A DNA stretch of 64,000 nucleotides from Octopus vulgaris (lineage: Eukaryota). Positions within the stretch are counted from its first letter, which is position 1. The number at the start of each line of letters is the position of its first letter. Under the pieces are notes generated by a model, which saw nothing but the letters and a program-made list of their open reading frames with translations, searched no databases and was not told the DNA's origin. A program made the position numbers and the translations under genes. This document shows positions 14,459 to 25,571 of this stretch, piece after piece. Location: contig OX597833.1 in assembly GCA_951406725.2 (NCBI GenBank), positions 21,080,001 through 21,144,000 on the forward strand, in the 5' to 3' direction.

Positions 14459-14662
14459 GTGTGGTAACACAAAAAGACATACAACTATGCAGACCCGACT
14501 AACCAACATTGATGCAGCCCTAACCATCCCTTGTCAATCATACCTTCTTAACCCTGACACCATACAACCGCATTCCCTGAAGTCCCTAACCTCCTCACCA
14601 ATATTTTCCTTCCTACCACTTTCCCTCATTCATTTTCCTCCTTTATTTTTCTCCTACATTAA

Positions 14663-14696
14663 TTTTTGATGAAAGACTAGTATCCGAAATGTCAAG
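14663..14696 (+). ncRNA. Decayed minimal hammerhead-like motif
   Basis: TTT-TTGATGA-A-AGA..TCC-GAAATGT-C-AAG, downstream of a DTIQPHSL peptide resembling a GIY-YIG C-terminus. Confidence 0.4.
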
Positions 14697-15295
14697 AGCC
14701 ACACCCTTCCTTTTAAGTGTCAAACAAATGGAACAGTTGTCAAAACTTGTCCCTCCTACGTTTGTCTTTTTTGTTTTTGTGCTTTATTTTCAGTACGCTT
14801 TTTGTACGCAATTACCCATAGGATTAATATTTTATGCTGTAACTGTTACAGAATTCATCCGATTTTGATTAAATTCGACATTTAGGTAAAGTTTAATGTC
14901 GAAGTAATGTAGTAGAATTAAAATTAAACTGGTGAAAGGCAGAAATCGTCAAAATTCACTCACAACAAAATAATGAACAGATTTTGAAGAAAATTGAGCC
15001 ATTAGTAAAATTAACATCGATTATTCATATAATGTATTGGGATTTAAAAGTCAATGGGGTATTTTCATGTAAATGGTCAGTGGATTCTATTGTATGATAT
15101 AACCGTAACCCTTTTTTTCCCGATTTTGCTGCAATTGGACACGCTGATCAATTTTGTACAGGGGATGGCATTAAGGGGAGAGAGATAAACAAACATCACT
15201 CTCAATGGGTCGAGGTACACCCAAAAGTTTCACTGTGATTTCAGACGGTGCAGTATGTAAGAGTATGTCGAAAGCGTTAACCGGGTAAAAACCGT

Positions 15296-15875
15296 TAGAT
15301 ATACTATTAAATTAGTATCTAATTCTCTCACCCTTATTAATTAATTATAATTATGCTACATTTATTTCTAAATGCAGTATTTGTTTTCCGTGAAAGTTTG
15401 GTGCGCTGTTAGTAGGGGCATTTGAATTATAACGTCGGATGTAATCAATTGAACCACACGTGTATTTATCGTTATGGTAAAATCTGGCGTGTGATTGAGT
15501 GGATTTCATCCAGATAGTTTTGGCTGAGGAGCTACAAGTGGATTTTTTTGTAAGTAAAATTACATTTAATTCATTAATAGCGAAACAATTGTCCCAAAAT
15601 AATCTGTATTTTTGTTATTTTTTATTTGCCCTGTCCGTGTGAGCTAACAATCGTACTGACTTTCATGGGAAACATGTATTTTTGTGGTCGAAACCTTTTG
15701 GATTAACTAGTGCTAGAGTGAGCCATATAGTGACCACTCTCTTATATTTATTTTGTAAAAATATTATAATATATTATAAAATATTATAATAATCCAGGTT
15801 TCTCGGAGCACTAGGCCACTTGGTGTTGAATAGATATACTATTAAATTAGTATCTAATTCTCTCACCCTTATTAA

Positions 15876-15884
<9 letters not shown>
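15296..15884 (+). mobile_element. ORF-less hammerhead-bearing element with 54-bp terminal direct repeats (retrozyme/pLTR-like)
   Basis: 15296-15349 equals 15831-15884 (period 535). Ends in (TA)n. A homologous 3' end lies at 17630-17720 (-). Confidence 0.75.
15511..15606 (+). ncRNA. Type I hammerhead ribozyme, canonical core
   Basis: Stem I cagat.GTTTTGG / CCAAAAT.atctg; CTGAGGA 15524-30; stem II GCTA/TAGC; GAAA 15582-85; CAATTG; GUC site, predicted cleavage after 15593. Confidence 0.88.
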
Positions 15885-15923
<39 letters not shown>

Positions 15924-25391: not shown

Positions 25392-25571
25392 GAGATATAT
25401 ATATTTATATATATATATATATATGATGTATATAATATAATATATGCATTATAGTGACCACTCTCTTATATTTATTTTATATAATATATATATATATATA
25501 AATATATATATATAATATATATATATATTACATATATATAATATATATATGTACGTATGCATATTTATCTA

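What the first reader, a model, noticed from the sequence alone, without database searches (positions are those of the whole stretch)
15296..15884. Terminally redundant 535-bp unit with a textbook hammerhead
Seen: an exact 54-bp direct repeat at both ends, no ORF, a canonical core (CUGAGGA, G-C closing stem II, GAAA, GUC site), a long stem I with one mismatch, and a 3' end at (TA)n. Inference: slightly-more-than-unit length is what reverse transcription around a circular RNA, or of a tandem pLTR transcript, would leave. Best candidate for an active element.
Basis: partly seen in the sequence, partly recalled or inferred. Interest (0 to 1): 0.85.

Follow-up and report, generated by a model that had tools for sequence, protein, structure and literature searches.

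The report
Hammerhead retrozyme with Penelope insertion footprint
This is one copy of a young, non-coding 535-base repeat with about 2,100 units in this genome, each carrying a predicted self-cutting hammerhead RNA; the way its copies sit in the DNA indicates that it is likely copied from an RNA circle by the enzyme of a Penelope-like retrotransposon.

Summary
In detail: exact 54-bp repeat 535 bp apart, intact type I hammerhead core (site after C15593), no ORF, (TA)n at the 3' end. The locus is one member of a young family (2,104 core matches genome-wide; arrays to 13 units, period about 535), a metazoan non-LTR retrozyme. Two corrections. The 54 bp are not a terminal feature but the 5'-truncated stump of the next unit; 5' ends scatter over the whole unit. 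And this copy has one ribozyme, so it is a product, not a source. The new point lies in the other copies: 3' ends fall at two fixed sites about 128 nt apart, both on (TA)n, and 50 of 55 independent head-to-head insertions use each site once (2 use one site twice, 3 unreadable). Two other hammerhead families and an intact 781-aa Penelope-like element here obey the same rule. Both arms carry one haplotype and read through the cleavage site. This is the Penelope 'tail at one end' footprint on a retrozyme, best explained by two-strand priming on one, probably circular, RNA. Cleavage, circles and the partner enzyme are untested.

The parts
15296..15830 (+). One full 535-bp retrozyme unit, non-coding, predicted about 68% base-paired as a circle
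   Evidence: Period of genomic arrays; folds
15296..15349 (+). 5'-truncated stump of the upstream unit (first copy of the 54-bp repeat)
   Evidence: other copies are cut at other places
15511..15606 (+). Type I hammerhead: stem I 12 bp with one mismatch, core CUGAGGA 15524-15530, 51-nt stem II arm 15531-15581, GAAA 15582-15585, 2-bp stem III with palindromic loop, predicted cleavage after C15593
   Evidence: stem I keeps pairing through two-sided changes in sister lineages
15381..15680 (+). Long predicted rod whose tip carries the hammerhead
   Evidence: Predicted fold only
15715..15754 (+). Hairpin and 3'-end site B (unit position about 459): the tail-less end used by one arm of head-to-head copies; read through in this copy
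   Evidence: Junctions; tally
15755..15881 (+). About 128-nt 'tail' between site B and site A
15831..15884 (+). Second copy of the repeat, ending at 3'-end site A (unit position 51-54), the inferred start of reverse transcription for this copy
15881..15911 (.). (TA)n target microsatellite
   Evidence: the same flank at nearly all A and B ends
14790..15293 (+). Older unrelated repeat (80-88% to other copies) cut short at the 5' junction; not part of the element. Its continuation in 4 of 5 other copies holds a 6-8-nt match to the first bases of the unit, about 7 nt past the junction

Best explanation
The locus is a 5'-truncated copy (one unit plus 54 bp) of a young, non-coding tandem repeat family with a hammerhead in every unit, likely spread as a retrozyme: multi-unit loci would be transcribed, self-cleaved to 535-nt monomers and ligated to circles, which a Penelope-like reverse transcriptase/GIY-YIG endonuclease would copy into (TA)n sites. 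The enzyme is inferred to act as a pair on one RNA: one subunit primes from one target strand at site A, the other from the opposite strand at site B about 128 nt upstream; each runs a variable distance round the template, and the two cDNA 5' ends are joined, giving head-to-head arrays with a tail on one side only. When only one arm is kept, as here, a single 5'-truncated copy results. Shown: family size, tandem period, fixed 3' ends, (TA)n target, one-A-one-B rule, shared haplotype of both arms, read-through of the cleavage site. Inferred: cleavage, circles, the identity and dimeric action of the enzyme.
For: Family: 145 matches from 40 of 1,172 candidates scored; 2,104 core matches against 2 for the reversed control; 104 full units are 93-100% identical to the window unit, median 98.1%. 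Ends: of 57 head-to-head rows in 94 loci, three are one duplicated insertion, leaving 55; 50 have one A and one B end, 1 AA (33-nt arm), 1 BB, 3 have an arm cut short. Among loci chosen by the ribozyme motif alone, blind to ends: 24 of 29. Same rule in a sister family (6 of 6), a third hammerhead family (18 of 18 distinct loci, tail about 85 nt) and an intact 781-aa RT/GIY-YIG element (3 of 3, tail about 40 nt, on (TA)n). One template: arms of one insertion differ by 0.5% against 2.6% for shuffled pairs (lowest of 2,000 shuffles 1.9%, 43 insertions); 16 of 16 multi-unit arrays among the first 100 listed hits have one letter at the free core position. No linear cleaved monomer: 41 of 52 A arms and 42 of 52 B arms pass the cleavage site; 1 of 153 5' ends lies within 5 nt of it, 3.1 expected. 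Not fold-back: 21 of 52 fit neither order, arm lengths uncorrelated. Literature: inverted 5'-truncated copy and tail at one end in PLEs (PMC8557442); two internal start sites, both strands extended, predicted dimer (PMC11167929); circles from retrozymes (PMC7229834).
Against: No autonomous element homologous to the unit was found among 30 GIY-YIG loci and 20 longer loci, out of 6,136 candidates of which 150 were scored. Variants that looked locus-private are sub-lineage markers at many loci (18 and 106 matches), so a homogeneous uncleaved multimer transcript explains arm and array homogeneity too. The two longest arrays read in full are mixed, one with a 4-unit higher-order pattern. Loci were chosen to hold the full unit or the ribozyme, which favours arms that cross the cleavage site. 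In a purified PLE system the uncleaved RNA was the main substrate and start sites did not differ between strands. 8 of 9 predicted frog retrozyme dimers did not cleave in vitro. Stem III is weak.
Confidence: 0.72

Rival explanations
1. Same PLE-driven insertion, but the template is a long uncleaved multimer transcript of a homogeneous source array; the hammerhead acts late or not at all and circles are a by-product.
For: Markers are shared by many loci, so homogeneous sources exist; hammerhead mutants did not affect insertion in vitro for an anole PLE; mixed long arrays.
Against: 5'-truncating copies of linear multimers can only shorten arrays, yet several sub-lineages each have homogeneous arrays of 6-13 units, which points to a monomer bottleneck; the core and stems are kept across diverged lineages.
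Confidence: 0.2
2. The unit is the pLTR of an autonomous PLE not yet seen, and the copies are its truncated 3' ends.
For: All insertion features are those of PLEs; frog retrozymes match pLTRs; only part of the PLE diversity was sampled.
Against: In 94 loci the sequence upstream of a unit is another unit or a junction; PLE ORF fragments lie near 5 of 94 loci, and in the two inspected a microsatellite separates them from the unit.
Confidence: 0.05
3. A satellite spread by DNA-level events (unequal crossover, rolling-circle DNA) with the hammerhead as a passenger.
For: Higher-order pattern in one long array; one insertion duplicated with its flanks.
Against: Fixed 3' ends on (TA)n, scattered 5' ends, dispersal over many contigs and the one-tail rule shared with an RT-encoding element.
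Confidence: 0.03

Closest known systems
Metazoan non-LTR retrozymes (Cervera and de la Pena 2020, PMC7229834; Li, Clavereau, Pollet 2026, 10.64898/2026.07.22.740005)
   Same: Non-coding AT-rich tandem units with a type I hammerhead; monomers to multimers; highly self-paired predicted RNA; 2-bp helix III with tetraloop as described for invertebrate and axolotl motifs; PLEs in the same genome.
   Different: Unit of 535 bp is above the 150-450 bp of the first paper (within the 51-972 bp of the second); 51-nt stem II arm; fixed two-site 3' ends, (TA)n target and head-to-head arrays are not described in the parts I read; no target duplication visible; no homologous pLTR found.
EN+ Penelope-like elements (Craig et al. 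2021, PMC8557442; Frangieh et al. 2024, PMC11167929)
   Same: 5' truncation, partial tandems, inverted 5'-truncated copy, tail at one end only, AT-rich or (TA)n target, two start sites, hammerhead upstream of the 3' end.
   Different: No ORF; canonical rather than minimal core; tail about 128 nt instead of 30-40 bp; the use of the two sites is almost strictly one per arm.
Non-autonomous Chlamys PLEs such as MRC1 (passage in PMC8557442)
   Same: Non-autonomous, multicopy head-to-tail insertions.
   Different: Those resemble their autonomous partner at the 3' end and their clade lacks canonical hammerheads; here no partner homology was found.

Membership tests
Non-LTR retrozyme | Type I hammerhead with intact core in each unit | tested here: met
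Non-LTR retrozyme | Tandem genomic repeats of a few hundred bp, low GC | tested here: met
   Period 532-535, arrays to 13 units; AT-rich unit
Non-LTR retrozyme | No protein coding, no LTR pair around a unique core | tested here: met
   the repeat is a tandem stump. PBS and PPT were not searched for
Non-LTR retrozyme | Self-cleavage of the transcript | not testable with these tools
   Structure and conservation only
Non-LTR retrozyme | Circular monomeric RNA in cells | tested here: inconclusive
   One run guessed to be RNA gives a single 565-nt contig (535+30), which a circle or a homogeneous tandem would both give
Non-LTR retrozyme | Target-site duplication, when present | tested here: inconclusive
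   Ends lie in (TA)n, where a duplication cannot be read
Autonomous EN+ PLE | RT plus GIY-YIG ORF | tested here: not met
   No ORF in the unit; no PLE protein hit in the window
PLE-mobilised element (works like) | Inverted 5'-truncated copy, tail at one end, AT-rich target | tested here: met
PLE-mobilised element (works like) | 3'-end homology to an autonomous partner | tested here: inconclusive
   None in 50 PLE loci sampled; most PLE candidates were not scored

The most novel reading that the evidence does not exclude
A Penelope-like RT/endonuclease dimer grips one circular hammerhead RNA at two fixed sites, primes from both strands of a (TA)n target and rolls round the circle with both subunits, so every complete insertion is a head-to-head pair with exactly one tail. 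The family would be genomic proof that animal retrozyme circles are PLE substrates, and the rule would explain the tandem, inverted and tail structures of PLEs in general.
Probability: 0.4. Interest if true: 0.78.

Novelty: new member of a known kind. Interest (0 to 1): 0.55.

Why it matters
Which enzyme moves animal retrozymes, whether circles are the template, and how PLEs make inverted copies and one-sided tails are called open in the papers read. Published support for the PLE link is co-occurrence and pLTR homology. This family adds the insertion footprint itself, with counts, and sits in a genome with an intact young PLE that shows the same footprint, so template, two start sites, target and a candidate enzyme are all defined for a test-tube assay.

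Tried and rejected
Rfam: no hammerhead hit; the microRNA rows are microsatellite noise. Autonomous partner by homology: none in 50 PLE loci; a wider core pattern gave sister families but was not read for ORFs beyond 15 loci. A-to-I editing recorded in genomic copies: rejected, A>G at 24 of 151 A sites against T>C at 46 of 203 T sites, p=0.14. Editing in sequencing runs: sense-strand A>G changes were common in two guessed-RNA runs (10 of 16 and 14 of 21 places) but also in a run of unknown kind (9 of 14), and several are genomic markers, so not used. No RNA holder listed on record. A second laying of reads with a neighbouring control stretch gave no result, so transcription stays open. Locus-private variants as proof of a circle: both markers tested occur at other loci. 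Fold-back synthesis and L1-type twin priming that stops at the second primer: arm lengths and 5' ends do not fit. A repeated inversion junction turned out to be one insertion duplicated with its flanks. My first reading that the 781-aa PLE has one end type was wrong. Metagenome scan: 0 matches. Earlier findings of the scan: none. Two rows of the third family were dropped from the pair counts as misaligned.

Full report
Observation. The window holds an exact 54-bp direct repeat at 15296-15349 and 15831-15884, 535 bp apart, followed by (TA)n. Between them lies a type I hammerhead: stem I of 12 pairs with one A.A mismatch, CUGAGGA at 15524, a G-C pair closing a 51-nt stem II arm, GAAA at 15582, a 2-bp stem III with the palindromic loop AAUU, and GUC at 15591-15593. 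The ribozyme and the unit fold better than all shuffles (z -3.96 and -6.46), and a core-plus-stems scan gives 1 hit in the window and none in 60 shuffled windows. Rfam does not detect it, probably because of the long stem II (inference). The unit has no ORF beyond 52 aa from ATG. The genome is 2.8 Gb in 227 contigs and rich in microsatellites; it looks octopus-like to me, which is recall and comes from no call.

The family. A genome search gave 145 matches from the 40 best of 1,172 candidates, many in tandem with a 535-bp period. A 16-base core pattern has 2,104 matches against 2 for the reversed control; a wider pattern that admits sister lineages has 2,733. The window's own sub-lineage pattern has 221. 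In the loci I fetched, 104 full units are 93-100% identical to the window unit, median 98.1%. The most variable core position is the one the hammerhead leaves free. Diverged sister lineages align along the unit; over 21 rows from about three lineages (2 misaligned rows dropped) the six inner pairs of stem I hold in 20-21 rows each through two-sided changes, and 151 of 168 cells pair against 54-74 when slid. The older lineage mostly has U.U at the base of stem II and GUA at the site, so it may be weaker.

What the 54 bp are. I analysed 94 loci: 34 chosen as best full-length matches, 56 taken from the ribozyme-pattern list without regard to ends, and 4 more best matches. The 5' ends scatter over the whole unit, so the window copy is one unit plus a stump that happens to be 54 bp. 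Its 5' neighbour is an older unrelated repeat (80-88% to other copies) that stops about 120 bp short of its usual end; the missing part is not elsewhere in the window, and in 4 of 5 other copies a 6-8-nt match to the unit's first bases lies just past the junction. A microhomology join with loss of target DNA is the likely cause (inference). With a single hammerhead this locus would not release a unit-length RNA, so it is a product of the family.

The insertion footprint. 3' ends fall at two places: site A (unit 51-54, the end of the window copy) and site B (unit about 459), about 128 nt apart, each after a predicted hairpin and a CUUAU plus nine A/U bases, each followed by (TA)n. Of 57 head-to-head rows, three are one insertion duplicated with its flanks, leaving 55. 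Fifty have one A end and one B end; one is AA with a 33-nt arm, one is BB, three have an arm cut short. In the end-blind set the count is 24 of 29. Single-arm copies use both ends: 19 A, 17 B, 3 other of 39. A sister family shows the rule in 6 of 6 and a third hammerhead family in 18 of 18 distinct loci with a tail of about 85 nt; both sets were found with a query ending at one site, so only the second arm is informative. An intact young PLE (781-aa frame, RT and GIY-YIG, many near-identical copies) also sits on (TA)n and shows one 40-nt tail and one short end in 3 of 3 head-to-head copies.

Template. The two arms of one insertion differ by 0.5%, shuffled pairs by 2.6%. Arrays are mostly uniform for sub-lineage markers on both arms, though the two longest arrays read in full are mixed. 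Arms routinely cross the cleavage site, and 5' ends avoid no part of the unit and do not pile up there; locus choice favours crossing on at least one arm. So the template is a circle or an uncleaved multimer. Several lineages each have uniform arrays of 6-13 units, which is most simply a monomer bottleneck followed by rolling synthesis (inference). The two markers I tested are not private to a locus, so this is not proof. Fold-back on the first cDNA fails for 21 of 52 insertions in either order, using approximate arm lengths and a 134-nt offset, so both arms were likely primed on RNA.

Sequencing runs. Twenty of 24 listed runs hold half or more of the sampled words, under eight organism codes; none is on record as RNA. 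Laid on a tandem array, one guessed-RNA run gives a single 565-nt contig, the length a closed 535-nt loop gives with 31-letter words, and another is dominated by one haplotype, whereas a deep run of unknown kind breaks into 4,884 pieces. This is a weak hint only: the run types are guesses and a uniform tandem gives the same contig.

Partner. No homology to the unit was found in 30 GIY-YIG loci or 20 longer PLE loci, a small part of 6,136 candidates. PLE fragments lie near 5 of 94 family loci; in the two inspected they are separated by microsatellite, which fits a shared target. The 781-aa family is a candidate by target, age and footprint, not by sequence.

Comparison with print. PMC7229834 (parts 2-4 of 6 and a term search; supplement not readable) defines non-LTR retrozymes, shows cleavage and circles in coral, mussel and axolotl, and names PLEs as the candidate mobiliser; its main text has no 'inverted', 'microsatellite' or cephalopod mention. 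10.64898/2026.07.22.740005 (parts 1-3 of 5; supplements closed) supports the link by co-occurrence and pLTR homology in frogs, and found cleavage in 1 of 9 dimers. PMC8557442 (passages) describes the inverted copy and a 30-40-bp tail often at one end only. PMC11167929 (parts 1-2 of 4) shows two internal start sites, extension of both strands with no strand difference, and a predicted dimer. Term searches in PMC12602865 and PMC12910113 added nothing. Searches for retrozyme with head-to-head gave 0 papers, and for hammerhead with octopus or cephalopod none on such a family; the library lacks most subscription papers and Repbase, and the unread supplements may list cephalopod repeats.

Verdict. 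A real, young retrozyme family: a new member of a known kind. The added value is the counted Penelope footprint and its near-strict one-tail rule, which makes an open mechanism testable. Interest 0.55.

Noticed in passing
window 25450-25480: Tiny fragment of the same family ending at site B inside a (TA)n tract.
   Followed up: partly
window 14790-15293; L052-L056: Older repeat family, 203 candidates, 80-88% identity, with internal duplication; its 3' end in other copies resembles a Helitron end (recalled, not tested).
   Followed up: partly
window 14660-14705: Degenerate minimal hammerhead-like motif of the kind seen at PLE 3' ends (recalled); no PLE protein hit in the window.
   Followed up: no
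L192:3439-5784 and L193-L207: Young Penelope-like family with an intact 781-aa RT/GIY-YIG frame in 16 of 20 loci fetched, most copies 97-99% alike, with a degenerate hammerhead core, CCAAT/TGACGTCA-like repeats in the 3' region and a further frame upstream.
   Followed up: partly
L212-L241: Third young hammerhead family (733 candidates), short copies, mostly head-to-head, about 85-nt tail on one arm; its 5' part and any tandem form were not found.
   Followed up: partly
L162-L191, L148: Older sister lineages of the 535-bp unit (2,408 candidates for one), period about 534, different stem I sequence, same two ends.
   Followed up: partly
L031 (G000:C28:10731500-10740500): Array of about 11 units with a 4-unit higher-order pattern of variants, suggesting later block duplication.
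   Followed up: no
L032: Several units of the array carry a changed G8 core position and would be inactive, alternating with intact units.
   Followed up: no
listing: Near-identical sequence is held by runs under eight organism codes; related species, recent transfer or mixed samples were not told apart.
   Followed up: no
L087, L097, L098: One insertion duplicated with flanks; in L097 the arm lengths differ by about one unit each and the left flank differs.
   Followed up: partly
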